A stretch of DNA of 64,000 nucleotides from Candidatus Moraniibacteriota bacterium. GTDB taxonomy: Bacteria > Patescibacteriota > Minisyncoccia > Moranbacterales > DUUL01. The DNA lies in the NCBI GenBank assembly GCA_027008775.1, contig JALVDV010000010.1:96529-160528 (forward strand), read 5' to 3'. The notes beneath the pieces were generated by a model. That model did no database searches. It saw only the letters and a list, made by a program, of their open reading frames with translations, and had not been told where the DNA came from. Positions 28 through 60,387 of this stretch are shown piece after piece (position 1 is the stretch's first letter; every line of letters begins with the position of its first letter). A program made the translations under genes and the position numbers.

Positions 28-430
28 GGGGGTGACAGGCTTCGACAGGTTGAACTTTTAAAAACCGGCAAGTCAAGCTTGAAAACCATCTTGTAAAACT
101 GGTTTTCAAAGATTTAAGTGCAAATCTAAAAACAAGGGTAAAAACCGCTTTGGCAAATTTATTTGCCAAACCAAGTTTTGCCGCCGCTGTCGCCTAATTG
201 AGCGATAGCCCGTCAACTGACCGACACCTGATAGGTCAGCTTGGCGTCAATTTTCAGGTTGCGAGTATTTTTTCTTCTCTCAAAAAAAATACTCTAAGCG
301 CACTGAGAGACCAACTGTGAGTGTTTTGTTTGTTTAGAGCTCACTGTTGGTATCGCAAAACAAACTAAACTTGTAGAAGGTTTTTGGAAGTCAACTCTGG
401 ACATGGGTTCAAATCCCATCACCTCCACCA
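28..430 (+). ncRNA. ssrA: tmRNA (ssrA)
   Basis: The 5' end GGGGGTG pairs with the 3' CACCTCC, giving a G3:U70 wobble, followed by ACCA. A tRNA-like T-arm GGTTCAAATCC is present. An internal tag reading frame starts at the GCA resume codon at 153 and encodes ANLFAKPSFAAAVA before a TAA stop at 195-197. Confidence 0.85.
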
Positions 431-7046: not shown

Positions 7047-7120
7047 GGGGGCGTAGCTCAGCTGGTTAGAGCGTCTGCCTGTCACGCAGAAGGTCGAGGG
7101 TTCAAGTCCCTTCGTCCCCG
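7047..7120 (+). tRNA. tRNA-Asp(GTC)
   Basis: A cloverleaf was folded by eye with anticodon loop cTGTCAc. No CCA is encoded. Confidence 0.8.
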
Positions 7121-7128
7121 CTTTTTTC

Positions 7129-7202
7129 GGGCGTTTAGCTCAGGTGGTTAGAGCGCGTCGCTGATAACGACGAGGTCCCAGGTTCAAGTCCTGGATCGCC
7201 CA
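7129..7202 (+). tRNA. tRNA-Ile(GAT)
   Basis: The anticodon stem is cgtcg/cgacg and the loop is cTGATAa. Confidence 0.75.
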
Positions 7203-7238
7203 CATTTTGCCAGCGCATTGTTTGTAAATAATTTTTCG

Positions 7239-7311
7239 GGGCCGGTAGCTCACCTGGTAGAGCACCTCGTTTGCACCGAGGAGGTAGCGGGTTCAAGTCC
7301 TGTCCGGTCCA
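7239..7311 (+). tRNA. tRNA-Ala(TGC)
   Basis: The anticodon loop is tTTGCAc and the acceptor stem has the G3:U70 pair. Confidence 0.8.
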
Positions 7312-7395
7312 CAATGAGCCAACTATTGCTTTTTTGTCAAAAGTATGCTAGGTTTCTCTGGTACGGGTTGGCACAGTAATTGATAAGTAAAATAT

Positions 7396-9092: not shown

Positions 9093-9233
9093 TATGTTGT
9101 TGGGAAGGAGTGGTACTCTGAGCAAAGTCGCCGATGTGTTACTAAAAAATATTCCGGGATTGAGACTGGCAAGAAAGAAATAGTCCTCTTGGTAATTGAC
9201 TTTCTTGTCAAAAATGATACCATTTTGAGCAAT

Positions 9234-9307
9234 GTCCCGATAGCTCAGCTGGATAGAGCAACGGCCTTCTAAGCCGTAGGTCGCAGGTTCGAATCCTGCT
9301 CGGGACA
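9234..9307 (+). tRNA. tRNA-Arg(TCT)
   Basis: The anticodon loop is cTTCTAa and the acceptor stem gtcccga/tcgggac pairs. Confidence 0.8.
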
Positions 9308-9389
9308 CCCTAGAAAGTTGTAGATTGTGGGAAAAATGTGGTAAAATGATGGTGCCAGGAATATTGTTGAAAATGTAAATGCGCAAAGA

Positions 9390-9473
9390 GCCTCGGTGGC
9401 GGAATTGGTAGACGCGTTGGACTCAAAATCCAATGATAGCAATATCGTGAGAGTTCAAATCTCTCCCGAGGCA
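9390..9473 (+). tRNA. tRNA-Leu(CAA)
   Basis: There is a long variable arm, an anticodon loop cTCAAAa, and a gcctcgg/ccgaggc acceptor stem. Confidence 0.8.
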
Positions 9474-9534
9474 CACTAATAAATTTTATTTATTAAAAGG
9501 TCGAAAACATAATAAGTATTAAACACAAAAAAAA

Positions 9535-10260
9535 ATGAATACAGTAAAAATGGCAGACATTAACAACTCGCTGGTAGACTCCAGCCAAAAAATGTGGAAT
9601 GGGTTGGTTGATTACTTACCAGCGCTAGTACTGACAGTCGTGATATTGGTTGTCGGTTTGGTTCTGGCTTTTGTCTTGGGCAGTTTAACAACCAAGATAG
9701 TCAAGAGTCTGCAGGTTGATAAAATTTTGGCAACTTTTGGAATCAGAGAAAAATTGAAAAAGTATGATATTGATTTTTCAATATCCGGTATTTTCGGTTG
9801 GTTAGTCAAATGGTTTGTAATCTTTACCACCTTGTTTACCGTGGCCGATATTTTAAACTTGCAAAATGTCTCTGAATTCTTGAGCCGAATATTGGCCTAC
9901 ATTCCAAATGTTTTGGTAGCGGTTGTTATCTTGACATTAGGTTTGATAGTGGCCAATTTCTTGGCGGAATTGGTTGATAAGTCAATCAGCACGACTGACT
10001 TCTTAAACAAGACTTCCGTAAGAGTTCTGAGGGCTATCACTAAATGGATAGTAATACTGTTTAGTGTTATGGTGGCCTTGACAGAACTCAATATCGCCAC
10101 TGAACTAATCCAGATTTTCTTCTCCGGAATTGTTATGATGTTCTCTTTGGCTGGAGGTATTGCCTTCGGTTTGGGAGGCAAGGACAAGGCAAAAGAACTG
10201 GTTGATAAAATATTCAGCGAGGAAGAAGAGTCAGAAGTTAGGGAAGACTACGAAGAATAA
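9535..10260 (+). CDS. Membrane protein with TM-helix repeats (MscS-like N-terminal region)
   Basis: It has repeated TM segments and an acidic C-terminus. Confidence 0.55.
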   Translation: MNTVKMADINNSLVDSSQKMWNGLVDYLPALVLTVVILVVGLVLAFVLGSLTTKIVKSLQVDKILATFGIREKLKKYDIDFSISGIFGWLVKWFVIFTTLFTVADILNLQNVSEFLSRILAYIPNVLVAVVILTLGLIVANFLAELVDKSISTTDFLNKTSVRVLRAITKWIVILFSVMVALTELNIATELIQIFFSGIVMMFSLAGGIAFGLGGKDKAKELVDKIFSEEEESEVREDYEE

Positions 10261-34372: not shown

Positions 34373-35236
34373 TTAATTTTGAATGGCGTTGAAAAACATC
34401 TCAATTTTTTCCTCTACCTTGATTTGCACCGATTCCCTGGCTACTTCAAGAATTTTGCGCGGATCAATCAGATCGCATTTGGGAATTACTTTGTTGCAAA
34501 CCGCGCTGATAAAAGCCAGTCGCAAATCGGTGTCAACATTAAAGCAGACGATGCCGCGACTAACGGCATTTTTAACTTTCTCTTTATCCCAATCGGAAGC
34601 GCCGTGCATAATCAGGGGGGTTTTAGGAATTAGTTTTTTTATTTTTTCCAACCTCTCCCAATCCGGAACTTTTCTCTCTCTAAAGAAACCGTGAGCGTTG
34701 CCAATGCCAACCGCCAGGGCGTCAATGCCCGTTTCTTCAACCAATCTTTTTGCTTCTTCAGGTTTCGTCATCACTTCTTCCCAACTAACGGTTTGCCCGT
34801 CTCGGCCAATGTAAGGCACTCGTCCCAGTTCTGCTTGAACAGCTACACCCTTTTGGTGCGCATAGTCAACGACCATTTTTGTTAGAGCAATATTTTCTTC
34901 CAGACTTTTTGTGGAAGCGTCTATCATAACCGAATCAACTCCCAATTTGTCAATCGCCACTTTAACATCGGCAAAACTTTTTCCGTGATCCAGATGAAAA
35001 CCTATTTTGGCTTTGCCGGAATTATACTCAATTGTCTTTTGAACAATGGCTCCAATAATATCTTCGCCGACGTACTCAATGGAAGTGGGAGTAACTTGGA
35101 TAATACAATTTTTTTTCAAATGTCTGGCCGCCCCGGCAATGCCTTGACCGATTTCTGTGATGGAAGTATTGAAGGCTCCCACGGCGTAACCGCTGCGACC
35201 GGCTTCGTGTAAAATATCTATTGTTTTTCCTCTCAT
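34373..35236 (-). CDS. fba: Class II fructose-bisphosphate aldolase
   Basis: The class II FBA motif HLDHG is present. Confidence 0.85.
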   Translation of the reverse strand: MRGKTIDILHEAGRSGYAVGAFNTSITEIGQGIAGAARHLKKNCIIQVTPTSIEYVGEDIIGAIVQKTIEYNSGKAKIGFHLDHGKSFADVKVAIDKLGVDSVMIDASTKSLEENIALTKMVVDYAHQKGVAVQAELGRVPYIGRDGQTVSWEEVMTKPEEAKRLVEETGIDALAVGIGNAHGFFRERKVPDWERLEKIKKLIPKTPLIMHGASDWDKEKVKNAVSRGIVCFNVDTDLRLAFISAVCNKVIPKCDLIDPRKILEVARESVQIKVEEKIEMFFNAIQN

Positions 35237-53763: not shown

Positions 53764-53876
53764 ATTGATGTAAATTAATTGCCGATTAGTAATTTTATTT
53801 GTCTCTGAATATTTTAAAACTAACCCAGTTCCAAGAAAAAAGCAACCTATTTTTCAAAGCCGGAATTCGTGTTAGG

Positions 53877-54623
53877 ATGGGACTGTGTTTAATTTTAGAG
53901 AGATTGTCAAAAAAAGTGAAAAAATTGATTATCGGACATCGGGGACTTAAAGGAATGATTGCCGAAAACACGGCGGAAAGTTTTAAAAAAGCCAAGGAGC
54001 TGGGCTTGGATGGAGTGGAACTGGACGTCAGAAAAAGCGCTGACGGCGAAGTGGTTGTTTTTCATGATAAAAGATTGGATAGAATGACAAACGCCCGAGG
54101 ATTGGTGCGTAAAAAAACATTGGCAGAATTGAGGTGCTTAAGAATCGGGGGAGGCGGAAAAATTATGACTCTAGCTGAAGCCTTGCAAATTATCGGACCA
54201 AAAATGATTGTTGATGTTGAGATTAAAGAGGAAGGTTTGGCTGAAAAAGTTGGGCAAATTGTAGATAAATTTGTAAAAAATAACGGTTTTGTTTATTCCA
54301 ATTTTGTATTGTCTTCTTCTAGTAATAAAGTTCTGCGAGAAATTTTTTCCCTAAAACAGTTAAAGACGAGAGCGAGAATGAGAATTGGAAAAATTTTTCG
54401 TTGGCGAAATGCTTGGGAATTATTAAAAAATGATTTCGCAAAATATGATTTGGTAGTTGTCAATCAGTACATTCTTTTGAAAAGATATTGGTTGAAAAAG
54501 CTTGGAAAAAGTAATGTAGATTTGTGGATTTATCAAATCAGAAACCCGGAGGAAATTGTTGTAAATGATAATTATTTGCAAGGATTGATAGTGGATTCTT
54601 GGGAAAGCGGAATTGAGCGCTAG
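53877..54623 (+). CDS. Glycerophosphodiester phosphodiesterase
   Basis: The GDPD motifs IGHRG and ELDVRKSADGEVVVFHD are present. The exact start is uncertain. Confidence 0.8.
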   Translation: MGLCLILERLSKKVKKLIIGHRGLKGMIAENTAESFKKAKELGLDGVELDVRKSADGEVVVFHDKRLDRMTNARGLVRKKTLAELRCLRIGGGGKIMTLAEALQIIGPKMIVDVEIKEEGLAEKVGQIVDKFVKNNGFVYSNFVLSSSSNKVLREIFSLKQLKTRARMRIGKIFRWRNAWELLKNDFAKYDLVVVNQYILLKRYWLKKLGKSNVDLWIYQIRNPEEIVVNDNYLQGLIVDSWESGIER

Positions 54624-54993
54624 GCTTAGGAAGGTATGATTATTGTTGTTTGGTGATATTTGCTTTTTATAAATTTTATGGATGCGTTTCTGCTAAAAAA
54701 AGAAGCCCCCGCCTGGATAGGGAGTGTTATCCCTAGGCGAGGGCTGACAAGGAGGTTGGGAGGGTTGCCATGATTTGTTTTCATTATAACAAGTGAAATT
54801 TGCTGCGTCAATTTTTGCAATTCTAAGTTCAACAATTAATTACAACACTCCAAATAAATATTAAACTAATTAGGTAGTAATTAGAAAATATTTATGAGTG
54901 TTAAAATTAAAAAATCACCTTTCGTTAAGCTGGAATTTTAAAACAACTCTCCCAATCGGGAGAGTTGTTTGTTGTGTGACTAAACCGCTTATT

Positions 54994-57900
54994 TTAGTAG
55001 GTTTCGCGGAAAGTATGAGGTCGACAAGGCGGACACTGCTTAACCTCATTGTGACAGCTTTTGCCGGTGGCCGATTTGTATTCCTTTTCTGACACTTGTA
55101 TGTAGGGAGCGTTGTTGGGGAAACATTTCTTGTCGTGTTTACGCGCTTGTTTTGTTATGATTACTCTTTCTCCACAATGTCCGTTACAGGCGCCAGGATT
55201 GATAGTTATACAACTATAGTCAAACTTCGGCACGCATTCGCAATTCTCATCTCCACCGGCTAAATCGTAGTAATCTTTAGGAACCAAGTTACCATAATTG
55301 ATATTGGTGTCTGTGAAACTACCGATATGTCTATTTGATTCTCCGGCTGTTCCACAGCGCCAGACATATTTTCCATCAATAAAGGCTAGACTATTAAAAT
55401 TTCCAAACCGACAGGCATCAGTTAATGATTTATATGGCGAGGACGTTGGATCATCATTACAAGCCGCCTTACTTTTAGCTCTACAAGTTGTTGTTTGCCC
55501 ATTTAAGCTACACTGCCAAGAATAACCTCCTTCATATTCTGATTGGTCGGTAAAATTAGAAACAACAGCATTTGCCGGTTGACATAATCCTTCCGAGTTT
55601 TCATTTAACTCATGAGTACCATAAGTCCCATCGGAAGCCGGGCCACAATCAACCCTTTGGGAGGCATGACATTCGGCATTTTTACCAGTTCCCCTGCCAA
55701 GGCATTGCCAGTTGGCCACGCCGTTAACAAATTCTGGATTAGTTGGCAATGGTTGCCCTGTGCTACAAAGTGGTTTACTAGGAGTAACAGCTGTTGACGG
55801 ATAATTGTTGCGACTAGCGCCAGGATTACAAACACCATCTGCATTGCAATTATCAACAGTGACTTCCCAAGAAAGCCGTCGAGCAGGTAAAATTATTGGC
55901 TGATCGTTAATTGCCTTCTGAGCAAGATTAAAGAAATCATCACTAGGTGACCACCAGTGAACCTTGACCGTTCCTTCTTTCTTTTCTGGATCCCAACTTT
56001 GCAGAGCATTTAAATCTCTGGCTGTTTGATAAGCGGTATATTCACGCCAAACTCCGTCACCGCATATTACCAGTACTTTTTCTCCAGAATCTTTAAAATG
56101 TTCAATACTCGTTGATTCGTAGTTTATTGCTGGGTTTCTTGGTATCCCAATATTTCTTAAACTAGATATCAATGACCAAATTTTGGCTTGAGTTTCACCA
56201 ATATGAGCCGTGACTCTTACTTTACCAGATTTTCCGGGTTGAGCTTGACAAATTAATCCATTACACTTCAAAATACTGTTGTCACTGGAAGTCAAATAAA
56301 CATTCGGTTTTTTAGCCGTCCAATAAATATAACCTTTGTTATAAGGGAAGGCTCCTTGTATTTCCAAGCTATTTCCGTAATCCGGGTGTTTTATATTACC
56401 TCCAAAACAGGAAGCATTTCTGTAATTATCACAAAATTTCCCAAAAGGAGTATCGTAAACATCACCAGCGCTGGTAAAAAACAGTTCCGGTTGATATCTA
56501 TAAGTCGCATTACCGTTACAAGATAAAACTGACTGTCCATTAATTTTGTGAGTTACTGTCACAATGTTATGGGCTATATAATAATAGGCTGGCTTCTGTT
56601 CTTTGACCAAGTTAGAATAATATCTGATGTGGAAATGGTTGATTGTGCTGGCTACACTTCCGCTGTAAGCCAAAGCTGGTTTGCCGGATGCAATTACGAG
56701 CAATCCTCCCGAAAACAGTAGCAAGAAAATAATTGTAAAATAGTTCTTCATTTTTTTAAGCAATAAAACCAAAATTATTATCAATACCGCTCCCAATACT
56801 ATCAGTATAACCGTTATAGTGTTTTTGCCTATGTTTTTGCTTCCCGCCAGACCTGTTTGCTGGCCGGATTTGGATTTCAATAATTTCCTGTCCAGTTCTA
56901 CCGAGTATTGATCCATTAGCATACCGGAAGAGTCCTTGAGCTGAGCGGTTAATTTTAAATAATCGTAGTCTTTTTTAGCCGGAAAACTTTTCTTAACAGC
57001 CTGCATTGCACCAGTGATATTTCCTTGGCGGAAAACCCTCGTTACCAAATGCCCCTCTTTATCTGTTAACTTCACTTCCACTGTTCCCACAAACCTATCT
57101 TTATTGGTATTGTGGAAACAAGTAAATAAGTCAGCTGTTTCTCCTTTTTTCAAGGGAAATTTCGTTAAACCGGGGTAATTTAATCTGCCCCAATTAATTC
57201 CTTCTGTGACTACCCTGGTATTGATAATTGTCTTAGTTCCCTCTGTCTCGGCAATTGTTTGCAAGTAGTAAACCGACTTATTGGCTGAGGGTATGGTGTA
57301 AGTAACTGTTTTTTGGGAATTTGCCGGCAACACTATCTCCTTTTCTTGATTGTCAACAAGGTCTTTTTCATTTAAGGCGTCCCAGAAATATAATTTTTGA
57401 GACAACTTAGCCTTGACCTCATGGCCTAAGGGATTGACAAGAGTTTGTTCAATAACCACTTTTGTTTCCGGCGCCACTTTGGGCCAATTGCCGATGTGGT
57501 TGTATTTTTCTCCGTTCACTTTTGTTGCCTCTCGCTGAAAGTGGATGTTGTTTTTGATGGTAGAAGAGACGGTAAATTCCGAGCTACCGCCGACAATTTC
57601 GTTAGTAAATGGCAAACCGGCCAAATTAAATTTTTTGCCGACAGAGAAAAAGAAATCAGCCCGATATCTGCCTTCGGCCAAATTGGTGGGAATCGCCCAT
57701 TTAAAAGCAACCTTTTGAGAGGAGTTTTTGTCTAGAACAAGATTTTTTTTGGCAATAAATTCATCAACAATATCATTGCCCTGTTGATCAAACTTATCGC
57801 TGACCTTGCTTATTCGGACAAAGAGATTGCCGTCAAAAATCGGGTATCTATTTTTATTAGTTAATTTTCCCTGAAAGGTTACTTTTTCCTCCGGTTGGTA

Positions 57901-58236
57901 TTGAAGTTTGTCCGGACTAAGATTGATGTCAACCGATTGAAACTTGTAGTATTGAAAACAATCTACTAAACCACTTTCACTTTTCTTTCTTTGTTCTTTT
58001 TTTAGAAAATGATTTTGGGGTGAAGAGACTTCTCCTTCAGCTGTTTTATTGCCAGAAAAATTACTTGTTCCCGATTTCCCGTTGGTAACTGTCGCTTGAG
58101 TTGTTCCTTCCGGCCCAGCCCATTCTAAGGGTAAGGCGGAATCAGAAGTGGCTAAAGCCTGCCCTATTCCCGTCAACCAGACAATTAAAAACACTGGCAA
58201 GAACAATAAAACTGATTTTGTGAATAGTTTGCGCAT
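54994..58236 (-). CDS. Large secreted protein (1080-aa ORF), probably two fused genes: a sortase-substrate domain followed by a signal peptide and a Cys-rich C-terminal domain
   Basis: It has an N-terminal signal peptide. An internal segment reads SGQQTGLAGS, a hydrophobic stretch, then LLLKK. This is followed at once by MKNYFTIIFLLLFSGGLLVIASG, which looks like a signal peptide. The junction sits on an A7 homopolymer at 56751-56757. Confidence 0.55.
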   Translation of the reverse strand: MRKLFTKSVLLFLPVFLIVWLTGIGQALATSDSALPLEWAGPEGTTQATVTNGKSGTSNFSGNKTAEGEVSSPQNHFLKKEQRKKSESGLVDCFQYYKFQSVDINLSPDKLQYQPEEKVTFQGKLTNKNRYPIFDGNLFVRISKVSDKFDQQGNDIVDEFIAKKNLVLDKNSSQKVAFKWAIPTNLAEGRYRADFFFSVGKKFNLAGLPFTNEIVGGSSEFTVSSTIKNNIHFQREATKVNGEKYNHIGNWPKVAPETKVVIEQTLVNPLGHEVKAKLSQKLYFWDALNEKDLVDNQEKEIVLPANSQKTVTYTIPSANKSVYYLQTIAETEGTKTIINTRVVTEGINWGRLNYPGLTKFPLKKGETADLFTCFHNTNKDRFVGTVEVKLTDKEGHLVTRVFRQGNITGAMQAVKKSFPAKKDYDYLKLTAQLKDSSGMLMDQYSVELDRKLLKSKSGQQTGLAGSKNIGKNTITVILIVLGAVLIIILVLLLKKMKNYFTIIFLLLFSGGLLVIASGKPALAYSGSVASTINHFHIRYYSNLVKEQKPAYYYIAHNIVTVTHKINGQSVLSCNGNATYRYQPELFFTSAGDVYDTPFGKFCDNYRNASCFGGNIKHPDYGNSLEIQGAFPYNKGYIYWTAKKPNVYLTSSDNSILKCNGLICQAQPGKSGKVRVTAHIGETQAKIWSLISSLRNIGIPRNPAINYESTSIEHFKDSGEKVLVICGDGVWREYTAYQTARDLNALQSWDPEKKEGTVKVHWWSPSDDFFNLAQKAINDQPIILPARRLSWEVTVDNCNADGVCNPGASRNNYPSTAVTPSKPLCSTGQPLPTNPEFVNGVANWQCLGRGTGKNAECHASQRVDCGPASDGTYGTHELNENSEGLCQPANAVVSNFTDQSEYEGGYSWQCSLNGQTTTCRAKSKAACNDDPTSSPYKSLTDACRFGNFNSLAFIDGKYVWRCGTAGESNRHIGSFTDTNINYGNLVPKDYYDLAGGDENCECVPKFDYSCITINPGACNGHCGERVIITKQARKHDKKCFPNNAPYIQVSEKEYKSATGKSCHNEVKQCPPCRPHTFRETY

Positions 58237-58298: not shown

Positions 58299-60053
58299 CT
58301 AAACCACCCCTTTTTTCTTCATAAAGGCCAAGATACCAACGGTGATTAAGGTAGAGAAGAGAACCAAGAGAACAATGTTGGTGGCCAAACCGGTCTTGGG
58401 AGCGGAGCGACGGTAACCAAAGTCAGCCTTGGTGTGTTCGTCTTTTTCTTTGAGTTTAACAGAGGTTTGGTTGTCCAGTTTACCATCGGGGTCGTAGGTT
58501 GGAATTAGATTCTCAACATCTTTAACTACCACCCGATAATGTCCGGAGCAAAGATTCTTAATCTTGTAACGACCATGTTTGTCAGTGGTGTCACAGTATT
58601 TCTTGTTACCGCGAAAAGCGCAGACTTTAACATCAGAAATTCCTTCTTCAATATCTTCTTGAATACCGTTACCATTGGTGTCATACCAAATATAGTTGCC
58701 AATGGAAGATTGACAATCTTCTTCCTCTTCTTTTCTTTCTTCTTTGAGTTTGACGGTAACCTGATCAGAGTCGGTAATGGTTTTGGAACCAAGCTTGGCG
58801 GTAACCGTTACTTTGTTGGTGGTATCTTGGTTGATGACCACTGACTTGGTACAACTCATAGCTTCGCCAACATTCAAAGAAGTCTGGGGACAGGTGATGG
58901 TTCCCAATTGATCATCTTGAACTTGAATGTTGGTTAGTTTAGTGTCGCCGGTGTTAGTGATACGATAAGTGTAAGTGACTGTTTCTCCTTTTTTTACTTC
59001 AGTGGCGGAAGCGCTTTTTTCAACTCTAACGCCGGTGTTTTCTTTTTGACAAACACTACTGCAACCATCGCCACTGACAGTGTTGCCGTCATCGCATTCT
59101 TCGGAGTCTTGTTTAAGGCCGTCTCCGCATTTACCTCCTTGAACAACTACGTTTTTACAGTCACTGGAACAATAGGTACAAGAACTGTTGTAAGCCGGGG
59201 TACAAGTTTGGCCGTTGTTAGCGCCTTCATCGCATTGTTCGCCACTTTCTTTGGTGCCATTACCACAGTTGGGAGAAGGAGAAGTTTCTTTTTGACAAAC
59301 ACTACTACAACCATCGCCACTGACAGTGTTGCCGTCATCGCATTCTTCTCCGTCTTCCAAAACTCCGTTACCACATTGGGGAGAAGGAGTTTCATTAACT
59401 TTCTCCAAAAGCATACAAACGGGCTCAAAGCCGTGTTTGAACTTTACTCCCTTGGGTCCGGCGTGGACCACTTTGATTTGGCGCAAAGGAGAAGTTATTT
59501 GCAGAGCAGAGGAACCATAGTTAACAGCAGTGATTTTACCGGCTTCTTCCACGCCATCGGGCAGGTCTTCCGTTGTGCCGGAACGAACTCCGTTAAAGTC
59601 TATGTAGTACTGTTCGTGAGATTCATCAGCCGGGTTGGCTTGACTGCGACCGACATAGCTGTCAAAGGATTCCAGATAAACGTTGTACTTGCCGGCGGGG
59701 ATGGAGATTCCAGAAACAGTCTTTTCCCTGGGGAAATTGTGACCGTTTAAAACTCCGCCGTCGGAAACCATAATGTCACCATTGTACTTGATAAGGATAT
59801 CCCCTTGTTTCTTGGTTTGCAGATGACAAACTCCGGAACAGTGATTGGCCAGATAAGTGGTGGTTTGGCGAAGGTTTTGGTTGAGAGAAGCAATCTTCTG
59901 GTTTTGCGACTGAAGGAGAACAGCGCCGAAAGCCAACAAAACAATCAGTAATAAAAAGATTCCTCCCACCAAGAGAGGCTTACGCCAAGACCATTGGTAA
60001 CGAGAAGAACGGCGAGATCTTCTTGGACCACTGCTTTTTTTTCTTTGCACCAT
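58299..60053 (-). CDS. Surface protein with Cys-rich repeats, DUF11, SdrD-B-like domain and C-terminal sorting signal (copy B)
   Basis: Starting from MVQRKK it is 584 aa and about 99% identical to copy A, with one D/N difference seen. Confidence 0.7.
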   Translation of the reverse strand: MVQRKKSSGPRRSRRSSRYQWSWRKPLLVGGIFLLLIVLLAFGAVLLQSQNQKIASLNQNLRQTTTYLANHCSGVCHLQTKKQGDILIKYNGDIMVSDGGVLNGHNFPREKTVSGISIPAGKYNVYLESFDSYVGRSQANPADESHEQYYIDFNGVRSGTTEDLPDGVEEAGKITAVNYGSSALQITSPLRQIKVVHAGPKGVKFKHGFEPVCMLLEKVNETPSPQCGNGVLEDGEECDDGNTVSGDGCSSVCQKETSPSPNCGNGTKESGEQCDEGANNGQTCTPAYNSSCTYCSSDCKNVVVQGGKCGDGLKQDSEECDDGNTVSGDGCSSVCQKENTGVRVEKSASATEVKKGETVTYTYRITNTGDTKLTNIQVQDDQLGTITCPQTSLNVGEAMSCTKSVVINQDTTNKVTVTAKLGSKTITDSDQVTVKLKEERKEEEEDCQSSIGNYIWYDTNGNGIQEDIEEGISDVKVCAFRGNKKYCDTTDKHGRYKIKNLCSGHYRVVVKDVENLIPTYDPDGKLDNQTSVKLKEKDEHTKADFGYRRSAPKTGLATNIVLLVLFSTLITVGILAFMKKKGVV

Positions 60054-60140
60054 GCTATTTGTTTTTATTTTTTTAAGGAAAAGCAAAAAGACAATTATTT
60101 CTTCGCTTAGATTGTAACACAAAAGGGAATTGGGGGCAAT
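58303..60140 (-). repeat. 1.84-kb direct repeat, copy B
   Basis: It is near-identical to 36654..38490 with one homopolymer indel. The upstream non-coding part is more diverged than the coding part. Confidence 0.95.
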
Positions 60141-60387
60141 TGATCGCATCAAAAAGCATCATTGATAAATCATTGGAAATGACGCCAAGATTCGGATAAA
60201 ATATGCTATTTTATTTTTTATTTTGCGCGTTCTTGGTCTGAGATATTCGTTTTATATTTTACAAATATTTACGGTTATTTTATTTTTTCTGAAACACAAA
60301 CAAATGCTCATGCATAATCAGAAGAAAGTTATATTTCTTGGACCGCTCCACCCAAAACCCAGTCGCTTGGCAATATCAGTTTCGTAA

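What the first reader, a model, noticed from the sequence alone, without database searches (positions are those of the whole stretch)
56740..56770. The 1080-aa ORF is probably two genes fused at an A7 homopolymer
A C-terminal-type sorting signal (…QQTGLAGS, hydrophobic stretch, LLLKK) is followed directly by a signal-peptide-like MKNYFTIIFLLLFSGG…. The junction DNA is cttAAAAAAAtgaag on the coding strand, with the run at 56751-56757. With six A's the upstream gene would end LLKK-TGA and overlap the downstream ATG (ATGA coupling). With seven A's the two read through. This is either a homopolymer sequencing error or phase-variable slippage that toggles between two proteins and one fusion.
Basis: seen in the sequence. 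Interest (0 to 1): 0.6.

Follow-up and report, generated by a model that had tools for sequence, protein, structure and literature searches.

The report
Real fused surface protein, not artefact
The 1080-residue gene is one genuine gene: its mid-protein "membrane anchor + signal peptide" pair is a conserved hairpin found in most members of a large, unnamed Patescibacteria surface-protein family (about a quarter of relatives encode the two halves as separate neighbouring genes), and the A7 run is just two lysine codons plus the A of ATG.

Summary
A7 lies at 56751-56757 (coding strand CTT AAA AAA ATG AAG = L-K494-K495-M496-K). An A6 version would give ...LLLKK-TGA overlapping an ATG that opens a 585-aa ORF. 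The interpretation as a sequencing error or phase variation is not supported. Seven assemblies from different samples, covering three sequence variants including a 78%-identical ortholog, all carry A7 in frame. All 68 word-search homologs are single long proteins. 21 of 31 informative genomic loci and about 113 of the 150 best family representatives are fused, including the 25 nearest. A/T runs of 7 or more occur 117 times in the window and in 38 of 47 long ORFs.

Ten genomic loci and about 32 representatives encode the halves as two adjacent genes: anchor, basic tail and TAA, then an 11-28 nt spacer (239 nt in one), then ATG and a signal peptide. Residues 496-523 align with those signal peptides.

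Best model: a secreted β-sandwich domain, a stop-transfer helix, a 5-residue basic cytoplasmic loop, an internal signal-peptide-like helix with an AxA site, and a second, Cys-rich extracellular domain. Cleavage at A523|Y524 is inferred, not shown. Interest is low to moderate.

The parts
54994..58236 (-). Single 1080-codon gene (stop codon 54994-54996) encoding the fused surface protein
   Evidence: The identical or near-identical ORF is present in six other assemblies.
58150..58236 (-). N-terminal signal peptide, residues 1-29 (MRKLFTKSVLLFLPVFLIVWLTGIGQALA|TS)
   Evidence: Hydrophobic segment 4-26. An equivalent N-terminal hydrophobic segment is detected in most homologs. Cleavage after ALA is inferred from the AxA rule.
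57976..58149 (-). Low-complexity linker, residues 30-87, predicted disordered
   Evidence: pLDDT below 50 over residues 23-87. Not covered by homolog alignments, which begin near residue 91.
56857..57975 (-). Conserved N-domain, residues 88-460: all-β, several β-sandwich (MG/Ig-like) modules; the family-defining region
   Evidence: pLDDT mostly above 90. Invariant residues C93 through D392. 1009 cluster representatives at E <= 1e-3. Only generic β-sandwich-array fold matches. No Pfam or NCBIfam family.
56758..56817 (-). First central hydrophobic segment (TM1), residues 474-493 ITVILIVLGAVLIIILVLLL: stop-transfer anchor
   Evidence: helix 471-495 in the model. Equivalent to the C-terminal anchor of the upstream gene in split relatives.
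56743..56757 (-). Basic loop K494-K495-M496-K497-N498, predicted cytoplasmic
   Evidence: Net loop charge is positive in 81 of 81 fused homologs. Cytoplasmic location follows from the positive-inside rule (established knowledge).
56751..56757 (-). The A7 run (T7 on the + strand): AAA AAA A(TG), i.e. two Lys codons plus the first base of the Met codon
   Evidence: Identical in 7 assemblies. One of 117 such runs in the window.
56668..56742 (-). Second central hydrophobic segment, residues 499-523: h-region YFTIIFLLLFSGGLLVIA and c-region SGKPALA. It acts as an internal signal-peptide-like re-export helix, with a putative signal peptidase I site at A523|Y524
   Evidence: Helix 500-516. An [AVS]xA motif follows this segment in 84% of fused homologs against 27% of control windows, P = 1e-26. 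It aligns with the N-terminal signal peptides of the downstream genes in split loci. Cleavage is inferred.
55657..56667 (-). C-half β-rich domain, residues 524-860; its first ~170 residues are conserved across the family
   Evidence: Near-invariant D595, P597, C658, C663, G671. pLDDT 60-96. Homologous to the downstream ORFs of split loci, E 1e-7 to 1e-18.
54997..55656 (-). Variable Cys-rich C-terminal tail, residues 861-1080 (16 Cys), poorly modelled
   Evidence: Cys counts; pLDDT mostly below 50. Few homologs align here.

Best explanation
The ORF at 54994..58236 (-) is one genuine gene of an uncharacterised, Patescibacteria-wide family of surface proteins. The product has five parts in order: a cleavable N-terminal signal peptide; a roughly 370-residue all-β ectodomain; a strongly hydrophobic stop-transfer helix (residues 474-493); a five-residue basic cytoplasmic loop (KKMKN); and a second, signal-peptide-like helix (499-516) that sends the chain back out. 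The result is a second, Cys-rich ectodomain (524-1080) that is also extracellular. A7 is simply how Lys-Lys-Met is written in a genome that uses AAA for 77% of Lys codons.

The family exists in two interchangeable gene architectures. About three quarters are fused like this one. About one quarter are split into an anchored upstream protein and a downstream secreted protein with its own N-terminal signal peptide. The two architectures are topologically equivalent, because an Nout-Cin anchor followed by an Nin-Cout signal peptide forms a hairpin. That equivalence explains why fusion and fission recur.

Shown: the conserved fused architecture, the split relatives, the positional homology of residues 496-523 to real signal peptides, and the enriched AxA motif. 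Inferred: the topology; that signal peptidase I cuts after A523 so that the fused precursor yields the same two polypeptides as the split operon (my estimate is about 50%); and that the two halves work together at the cell surface (the Rosetta-stone argument).
For: Uniform A7 in frame in the window and in L001-L006, from 7 different samples and 3 sequence variants: identical, 35 nt different, and the 78% aa ortholog. 68 of 68 homologs are 607-1734 aa, and most give single BLASTP HSPs crossing residue 495/496. All have a strong central hydrophobic region and none ends after TM1; a crude hydropathy scan resolves two separate segments in most of them. Conserved residues lie on both sides of the junction. 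In the annotation-free genome scan, 21 loci are fused, 10 split and 3 uninformative. In the census with the N-domain alone, about 113 are fused, about 32 split and 4 are fragments; the first split form appears at rank 26. The rough NJ tree puts the window in an all-fused clade, with split forms at 4 or more scattered positions. Loop charge is positive in 81 of 81; the AxA-type motif is at 84% against 27%, P = 1e-26. Split-locus downstream ORFs are homologous to the C-half, with alignments starting at residues 495-499. Their signal peptides run 26-33 residues to the AxA site, against 28 for M496-A523. The AF2 model shows a helix-turn-helix hairpin at 471-495/500-516 between two β domains. A7 runs are ordinary: 117 in the window, 86 of them in ORFs.
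Against: No reads were available, so minority A6 or A8 alleles cannot be excluded. Every assembly is a consensus, and some samples may share a study. Cleavage at A523|Y524 is untested, and internal signal peptides are not always cut. No SignalP-grade predictor was available, and my motif test is crude. The NJ tree has no support values, so the number and direction of fusion and fission events are uncertain. Function is unknown: fold matches are generic (TM below 0.2), and no curated family matches.
Confidence: 0.85

Rival explanations
1. Homopolymer sequencing or assembly error: the true genome has A6 and two overlapping genes (ATGA), and the 1080-aa ORF is an artefact.
For: An A6 version would give two well-formed ORFs. 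Two-gene relatives exist.
Against: Seven assemblies from different samples and assemblers (k141 contigs, scaffolds, Logan unitig-based contigs, a GenBank MAG) all show A7, including a 78%-identical ortholog that would need the same error independently. The 25 nearest family representatives and the whole surrounding clade are fused, with unrelated loop sequences. The window has 86 other A/T runs of 7 or more inside long ORFs that stay open. The real split relatives are separated by 11-239 nt spacers, not by a 1-nt shift.
Confidence: 0.02
2. Phase-variable, or transcriptional/ribosomal, slippage at A7 toggles between the fused protein and two separate proteins. The anchored N-half would stop at TGA, and the C-half would start from the overlapping ATG.
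For: A -1 change gives exactly the two-gene arrangement that works in about a quarter of the family. KKM and A7 are conserved in the 78% ortholog. ATG 496 sits in an A-rich context like true starts in this SD-poor genome. Met is mildly enriched in fused loops, 15 of 81 against 8.7 expected, P = 0.025.
Against: There is no length polymorphism in 7 assemblies. Seven bases is short for a contingency tract, and the run is not over-represented: 117 similar runs, most of them in ordinary genes. A7 conservation is expected from conserved KKM plus 77% AAA usage. No stimulatory RNA structure lies downstream, here or in the ortholog, z = +0.6 to +1.5. In the zero frame the run is preceded by T (CTT AAA AAA ATG), so it is not a canonical X XXY YYZ heptamer. 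Most fused relatives lack both the Met and the run.
Confidence: 0.05
3. Same genuine fused gene, but the hairpin is never cleaved. The protein stays as one polypeptide, tethered by a two-helix hairpin with both ectodomains held at the membrane.
For: Both helices are predicted as a packed hairpin. Some fused homologs have long second segments (25-35 residues) or no clear AxA: 16% lack the motif. If cleavage always occurred, a fusion would give little benefit beyond fixed 1:1 stoichiometry.
Against: The AxA-type motif is strongly enriched right after the second segment, P = 1e-26. In the window the c-region has the classic helix-breaker plus AxA (SGKPALA). The segment is positionally homologous to cleavable N-terminal signal peptides of the split forms.
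Confidence: 0.4
4. Independent internal initiation at M496 makes the C-half separately from the same mRNA, alongside the full-length protein.
For: A-rich leaders without Shine-Dalgarno motifs are the norm: only 4 of 47 genes have an SD-like motif, and several real starts read AAAAAA-ATGA.
Against: The Met is absent from the loops of most fused relatives. Nothing separates this ATG from other in-frame ATGs. There are only weak (9 of 12) promoter-like matches nearby in AT-rich sequence.
Confidence: 0.1

Closest known systems
Rosetta-stone gene fusion/fission pairs (composite proteins whose parts are separate, functionally linked genes in other genomes)
   Same: Both parts occur as adjacent separate genes in about a quarter of relatives and as one ORF in the rest. 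The order is always the same. Homology of both parts was shown.
   Different: Here the joint is a membrane anchor plus a signal peptide. The fusion therefore creates a transmembrane hairpin and keeps both domains outside the cell. Most textbook cases are cytoplasmic enzymes.
Polyprotein precursors with internal signal peptides cut by signal peptidase: the Bradyrhizobium FbcH cytochrome b-c1 precursor, and flavivirus and bunyavirus glycoprotein precursors (from my own knowledge; literature searches found nothing usable on the bacterial case)
   Same: A stop-transfer helix followed by an internal signal-peptide-like helix with an AxA site, ahead of a second exported domain.
   Different: Cleavage is not demonstrated here. 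There is no sequence or fold relationship to those proteins. The family is Patescibacteria-specific and its function is unknown.
Sortase (LPXTG) cell-wall sorting signals of Gram-positive surface proteins
   Different: No LPXTG-like motif in any of 81 fused family members. QQTG is not conserved. The segment is internal in this protein. By contrast, the upstream neighbour (58299-60152) does end in APKTG, a hydrophobic stretch and KKKGVV.
Homopolymer contingency loci (phase-variable poly-G, poly-C or poly-A tracts in Neisseria, Haemophilus, Campylobacter and Mycoplasma surface-protein genes; from my own knowledge)
   Same: A mononucleotide run inside a surface-protein gene, where a 1-nt change alters the product.
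   Different: The tract is short (7) and invariant in 7 assemblies. It is no more frequent than elsewhere in the genome. A -1 change would not switch the protein off; it would recreate a viable two-gene form.
α2-macroglobulin/complement-type MG-domain arrays
   Same: Foldseek's top hits are strings of β-sandwich MG/Ig-like domains. Two homologs carry a precomputed PF01835 hit.
   Different: TM-scores are 0.08-0.16 and identity 6-11%. There is no thioester C[GAS]EQ motif. The Pfam match for the query is below threshold. This is fold-class resemblance only.

Membership tests
Phase-variable homopolymer (contingency) locus | Tract length differs among strains, assemblies or reads | tested here: not met
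   A7 in 7 of 7 assemblies from different samples, covering 3 sequence variants. Read-level data were not available.
Phase-variable homopolymer (contingency) locus | Tract unusually long or over-represented relative to the genome background | tested here: not met
   117 A/T runs of 7 or more in 64 kb. 86 lie in long ORFs, and 38 of 47 ORFs carry at least one.
Phase-variable homopolymer (contingency) locus | Minority alleles of a different length within a population (read pile-up) | not testable with these tools
   There is no access to raw reads.
Programmed -1 ribosomal frameshift site | Slippery heptamer X XXY YYZ in the zero frame | tested here: not met
   The zero frame is CTT AAA AAA ATG. 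The base before the first AAA is T.
Programmed -1 ribosomal frameshift site | Stimulatory stem-loop or pseudoknot a few nucleotides downstream | tested here: not met
   Downstream 51-91 nt fold no better than shuffles, z = +0.64 and +1.47; in ortholog L002, z = +0.73.
Sortase-dependent cell-wall sorting signal | LPXTG-like pentapeptide just before the hydrophobic segment, conserved among homologs | tested here: not met
   0 of 81 fused family members have one. The window's QQTG is QKAG in the 78% ortholog.
Sortase-dependent cell-wall sorting signal | Hydrophobic domain plus a positively charged tail at the extreme C-terminus | tested here: not met
   The hydrophobic segment and KK are present, but 585 residues follow in this protein and in most relatives. 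The segment is terminal only in the split relatives.
Sec-type signal peptide cleaved by signal peptidase I (applied to residues 496-523) | Basic n-region, 15-20-residue hydrophobic h-region, and a c-region with small residues at -3 and -1 | tested here: met
   KKMKN / YFTIIFLLLFSGGLLVIA / SGKPALA|YS. The [AVS]xA motif occurs in 84% of fused homologs against 27% of controls.
Sec-type signal peptide cleaved by signal peptidase I (applied to residues 496-523) | Homologous in position to bona fide N-terminal signal peptides | tested here: met
   Downstream genes of split loci start with Met, a basic n-region, an h-region and AxA. In five loci they align to the query from residues 495-499.
Sec-type signal peptide cleaved by signal peptidase I (applied to residues 496-523) | Actual cleavage by signal peptidase | not testable with these tools
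   This needs N-terminal sequencing, proteomics or expression experiments.
Rosetta-stone fusion/fission family | Both parts of the composite protein occur as separate genes elsewhere, each homologous to the matching part | tested here: met
   10 split genome loci. In 9 of them the downstream ORF matches the C-half at E 1e-7 to 1e-18. The tenth (L026) runs off its contig soon after the signal peptide and gave no match. About 32 N-half-only representatives.
Rosetta-stone fusion/fission family | Separate parts are genomically linked and in a constant order | tested here: met
   The downstream gene follows on the same strand after 11-28 nt, or 239 nt in L028.
α2-macroglobulin / thioester-containing proteins | Thioester motif (CGEQ) and a full MG1-MG8/TED architecture | tested here: not met
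   No C[GAS]EQ motif. Foldseek TM-scores are 0.16 or less. No Pfam A2M domains were found in the query.

The most novel reading that the evidence does not exclude
The Lys-Lys-Met loop written as A7+TGA is a built-in 'fission switch'. Replicative or transcriptional loss of one A converts the fused gene, in one step and at no functional cost, into the anchored-protein plus secreted-protein pair that a quarter of the family uses. Cells or transcripts would then produce a mixture of tethered and releasable forms of the C-terminal Cys-rich domain. More broadly, AAA-rich loops in these SD-less, AT-rich genomes would make anchor/signal-peptide hairpins hot spots for reversible gene fusion and fission.
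Probability: 0.05. Interest if true: 0.6.

Novelty: new member of a known kind. Interest (0 to 1): 0.3.

Why it matters
For annotation, the gene should be left as one ORF. An internal "anchor + signal peptide" pair next to a homopolymer is not in itself evidence of a frameshift error, especially in AT-rich Patescibacteria, where Lys-rich cytoplasmic loops inevitably spell poly-A.

For biology, the locus is a clean natural example of topology-preserving fusion and fission. A type-I anchored protein and the secreted protein encoded next to it can merge into a hairpin protein, or separate again, without changing where either domain ends up. The family is large (about 1000 clusters at 50% identity), specific to episymbiotic ultrasmall bacteria, surface-exposed and entirely uncharacterised. 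The linkage of the two halves is a usable functional clue. If the internal signal peptide is cleaved, this would be a widespread bacterial polyprotein processed by signal peptidase, which is rarely documented.

Tried and rejected
- **Full-length MAFFT in the sandbox:** it timed out. I replaced it with a sub-region alignment and the align_proteins tool.
- **Foldseek against afdb50:** unavailable. Foldseek against the PDB gave only generic β-sandwich arrays, so I draw no functional assignment from structure.
- **Pfam and NCBIfam:** nothing above threshold for either half. The weak WxLIP_PGBD hit (E = 0.0013, 19 bits against a 27.3 cut-off) was disregarded.
- **Metagenome scan for close relatives, to look for A6 alleles:** it returned only distant homologs at 30-36% identity, so there is no extra information on tract length.
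- **Literature searches:** searches for bacterial internal signal peptides, FbcH, and Patescibacteria surface proteins found nothing relevant. Those comparisons rest on my own knowledge.
- **My first cleavage-site picker:** it matched 80 of 81 and was too permissive to mean anything. I replaced it with a motif-versus-control-window test.
- **Shine-Dalgarno argument against internal initiation:** dropped, because only 4 of 47 genes in the window have an SD-like motif.
- **Promoter and terminator scan around the junction:** only weak 9-of-12 matches in AT-rich DNA, which I do not count as evidence.
- **L031, L038 and L040:** excluded as uninformative (an N-masked stretch and contig ends).
Full report
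**1. The observation**

The + strand at 56740-56770 reads atagttcttc-a-ttttttt-aagcaataaaac. The T7 run is at 56751-56757. The only long ORF across it is 54994..58236 on the minus strand, 1080 aa. On the coding strand the junction is GTT TTA TTG CTT AAA AAA ATG AAG AAC TAT = V-L-L-L-K494-K495-M496-K-N-Y. The Met is residue 496, and its A is the seventh A of the run. Removing one A gives ...IIILVLLLKK followed by TGA, overlapping an ATG that opens a 585-aa ORF, MKNYFTIIFLLLFSGG... Adding one A runs 46 residues out of frame to a stop.

The run itself is not remarkable.
- The window is 40% GC and contains 117 A/T runs of 7 or more, about one per 550 nt.
- 86 of these lie inside long ORFs, 75 of them as sense-strand poly-A.
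- 38 of 47 long ORFs carry at least one, and this ORF carries three.
- Lys is encoded by AAA 77% of the time, so Lys-Lys followed by any A-initial codon usually spells A7 or longer.

**2. Is the fusion real in this organism?**

The exact protein is also encoded on an independent ENA contig (L001). A variant with 35 nucleotide differences occurs in two further samples (L005 and L006). A 78%-identical ortholog of 1091 aa occurs in three more (L002-L004, one of them a GenBank MAG). All seven sequences have A7 and an uninterrupted frame. An identical +1 error arising in three diverged lineages and seven assemblies is not credible. Raw reads could not be examined.

**3. Is the fused architecture the family norm?**

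A word-indexed search with the whole protein returned 68 homologs of 607-1734 aa at 30-99% identity. Most align in one BLASTP HSP straight across residue 495/496. All have a strong central hydrophobic region about 400 residues in, and a crude hydropathy scan resolves it into two separate segments in most of them. Most also show an N-terminal hydrophobic segment. None ends after the first central segment. Near-invariant residues lie on both sides of the junction: C93 through Y448 on one side, and D595, P597, C658, C663 and G671 on the other.

That search favours long proteins, so I ran two unbiased tests.

- **(a) Genome scan.** This used DNA patterns from the N-domain only and gave 34 loci in Patescibacteria MAGs. 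Following the N-domain reading frame without any gene calls, 21 loci run through both hydrophobic segments into hundreds more residues. Ten stop right after the first segment, and three are uninformative.
- **(b) Exhaustive HMMER search.** I searched 1.84 billion representatives with residues 88-460 alone. It found 1009 family clusters at E <= 1e-3. Of the best 150, about 113 are fused, about 32 end after anchor plus basic tail, and four are fragments. The first split form appears at rank 26.

On a rough neighbour-joining tree of the N-domain, the window's protein sits in a clade whose members are all fused. That clade includes two loci from the unbiased genome scan. Split forms appear at four or more scattered positions. 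The tree has no support values.

**4.

The ten split loci are proper two-gene arrangements, not 1-nt frameshifts.
- The upstream ORF ends with a hydrophobic anchor, a Lys/Arg tail and TAA.
- An AT-rich spacer of 11-28 nt follows (239 nt in L028).
- The downstream ORF then begins with Met, a basic n-region, a hydrophobic core and AxA. Examples are L009 MFNKNKIIFCVILFMISLGLLFFVEDSVYA|MT and L025 MKNFNKYILLLAVIVGFSFFTINANSASA|QE.

In nine of the ten loci the downstream ORFs are homologous to the query's C-half, at E 1e-7 to 1e-18. In five loci the alignment starts at query residues 495-499. The tenth locus, L026, runs off its contig soon after the signal peptide and gave no match. The window's M496-A523 (MKNYFTIIFLLLFSGGLLVIASGKPALA|YS, 28 residues) is thus the positional homolog of genuine N-terminal signal peptides of 26-33 residues.

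By contrast, the 'QQTG' before the first segment is not a sortase motif. It is QKAG in the 78% ortholog, and none of 81 fused family members has an LPXTG-like motif there.

**5. How it most likely works**

- **Shown:** the loop between the two hydrophobic segments carries a net positive charge in 81 of 81 fused proteins, and is dominated by K, R and N.
- **Shown:** an [AVS]-x-A motif lies 10-38 residues after the loop in 84% of them, against 27% of control windows from the same proteins (binomial P = 1e-26). It often sits directly ahead of the first conserved motif of the C-half.
- **Shown:** AlphaFold2, run with the family alignment, models a confident all-β N-domain (pLDDT above 90 for residues 90-450) and a helix-turn-helix hairpin at 471-495/500-516. 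It also models a moderately confident β-rich domain at 525-860 and a poorly modelled Cys-rich tail (27 of the 29 cysteines are in the C-half).
- **Inferred, from the positive-inside rule and Sec biology:** the N-terminal signal peptide exports the first domain. Residues 474-493 stop transfer, KKMKN stays in the cytoplasm, and residues 499-516 re-initiate export, so both large domains end up outside.
- **Inferred, at about 50% in my estimate:** signal peptidase I cuts after A523. If so, the fused precursor yields the same two polypeptides as the split operon. The uncleaved-hairpin alternative is listed as a rival.
- **Rosetta-stone inference:** the recurrent linkage and fusion of the two halves imply that they act together at the cell surface.

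Function beyond 'surface protein' is unknown. Foldseek against the PDB finds only generic strings of MG/Ig-like β-sandwiches (TM 0.16 or less). There is no thioester motif. Neither Pfam nor NCBIfam has a model for either half.

**6. Slippage and phase-variation readings**

- There is no tract-length polymorphism in seven assemblies.
- The run is short and not over-represented.
- Its conservation in the ortholog is expected from a conserved KKM plus codon bias.
- In the zero frame it is not a canonical slippery heptamer.
- The downstream RNA folds no better than shuffled sequence, here or in the ortholog (z = +0.6 to +1.5).
- Most fused relatives have neither a Met nor this run in the loop.

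Two small points keep a residual possibility alive. A -1 change would produce exactly the arrangement that works in a quarter of the family. And in this genome Shine-Dalgarno motifs are rare (4 of 47 genes) and real starts sit in A-rich leaders, so ATG 496 has a start-like context. Met is also mildly enriched in fused loops, 15 of 81 against 8.7 expected, P = 0.025. I put phase or transcript slippage at about 5% and internal initiation at about 10%.

**7. Comparison with known systems and verdict**

The closest concept is a Rosetta-stone fusion/fission pair, and its membership features were tested and met. Mechanistically, the locus resembles polyprotein precursors with internal signal peptides. 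Examples are Bradyrhizobium FbcH and the flavivirus and bunyavirus glycoprotein precursors. These comparisons come from my own knowledge, because the searchable literature gave nothing usable. Cleavage is untested here.

The locus is not a sortase substrate, a contingency locus, a programmed frameshift site or an α2-macroglobulin. In each case a defining feature was tested and not met.

The finding as written (error or phase switch at A7) is essentially refuted. What remains is an ordinary but tidy case: a genuine fused member of a large, unnamed Patescibacteria surface-protein family that exists in both fused and split forms. Interest 0.3; novelty: new member of a known kind.

Noticed in passing
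window 58299-60152 (-): The gene immediately upstream (617 aa by the listed TTG start; 583 aa as called in L005) has DUF4215, DUF7507/DUF11 and SdrD B-like domains. It ends in ...RRSAPKTGLATNIVLLVLFSTLITVGILAFMKKKGVV, which is a far better candidate sortase-type sorting signal (xPKTG, hydrophobic stretch, basic tail) than the segment in the finding. The same gene precedes the 99% relative in L005.
   Followed up: partly
whole window (47 long ORFs): Shine-Dalgarno-like motifs precede only 4 of 47 long ORFs. Many starts sit in A-rich leaders, for example AAAAAAAA-ATGA at 9535, and AAAAA-ATGA at 35236 and 43345. Start-site calls and 'no RBS' arguments are therefore unreliable in this genome.
   Followed up: partly
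L018:2466-5540 (CAZKWX010000006.1): This fused family member has an unusually long (~37 aa) acidic and polar linker between the two hydrophobic segments: KKTRDKNDDSDLPGMSSKLDGPSEPNDSSSNQFQTPT. Its nearest neighbours on the rough tree (L008 and L013, the latter from the same MAG) are split. It looks like an independent, recent fusion through a former intergenic spacer.
   Followed up: partly
L007, L009, L013, L018, L031 and L023, L029, L032, L034-L036, L038: MAGs carrying this otherwise Moraniibacteriota/Paceibacterota-type family are labelled Micavibrio, Bdellovibrionales or Saccharibacteria in their record titles. This may reflect mis-binning or mis-classification of ultrasmall-bacterium contigs.
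   Followed up: no
window 54997-55656 (-), residues 861-1080: The C-terminal tail is Cys-rich (16 Cys in 220 residues), with repeated C...G...W.C.G..G....C-like modules. It is poorly modelled (pLDDT below 50) and variable among homologs. It could be a disulfide-knotted, fast-evolving binding module.
   Followed up: no
window 28-430 (+); 7047-7312 (+); 9233-9474 (+): A tmRNA gene (tag peptide ANLKTRVKTALANLFAKPSFAAAVA) and two small tRNA clusters (Asp-Ile-Ala and Arg-Leu).
   Followed up: no
whole window: There is strong strand asymmetry. About 40 of 47 long ORFs are on the minus strand, and the + strand has T 20727 against A 17403. This fits a single replichore with co-oriented genes.
   Followed up: no
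window 54949-54964 (both strands): A palindromic terminator-like hairpin (CTCTCCCGATTGGGAG followed by a T-rich tail) lies about 30 nt after the ORF's stop codon. It is a plausible bidirectional terminator between the convergent 1080-aa gene and the GDPD gene at 53799-54623.
   Followed up: no
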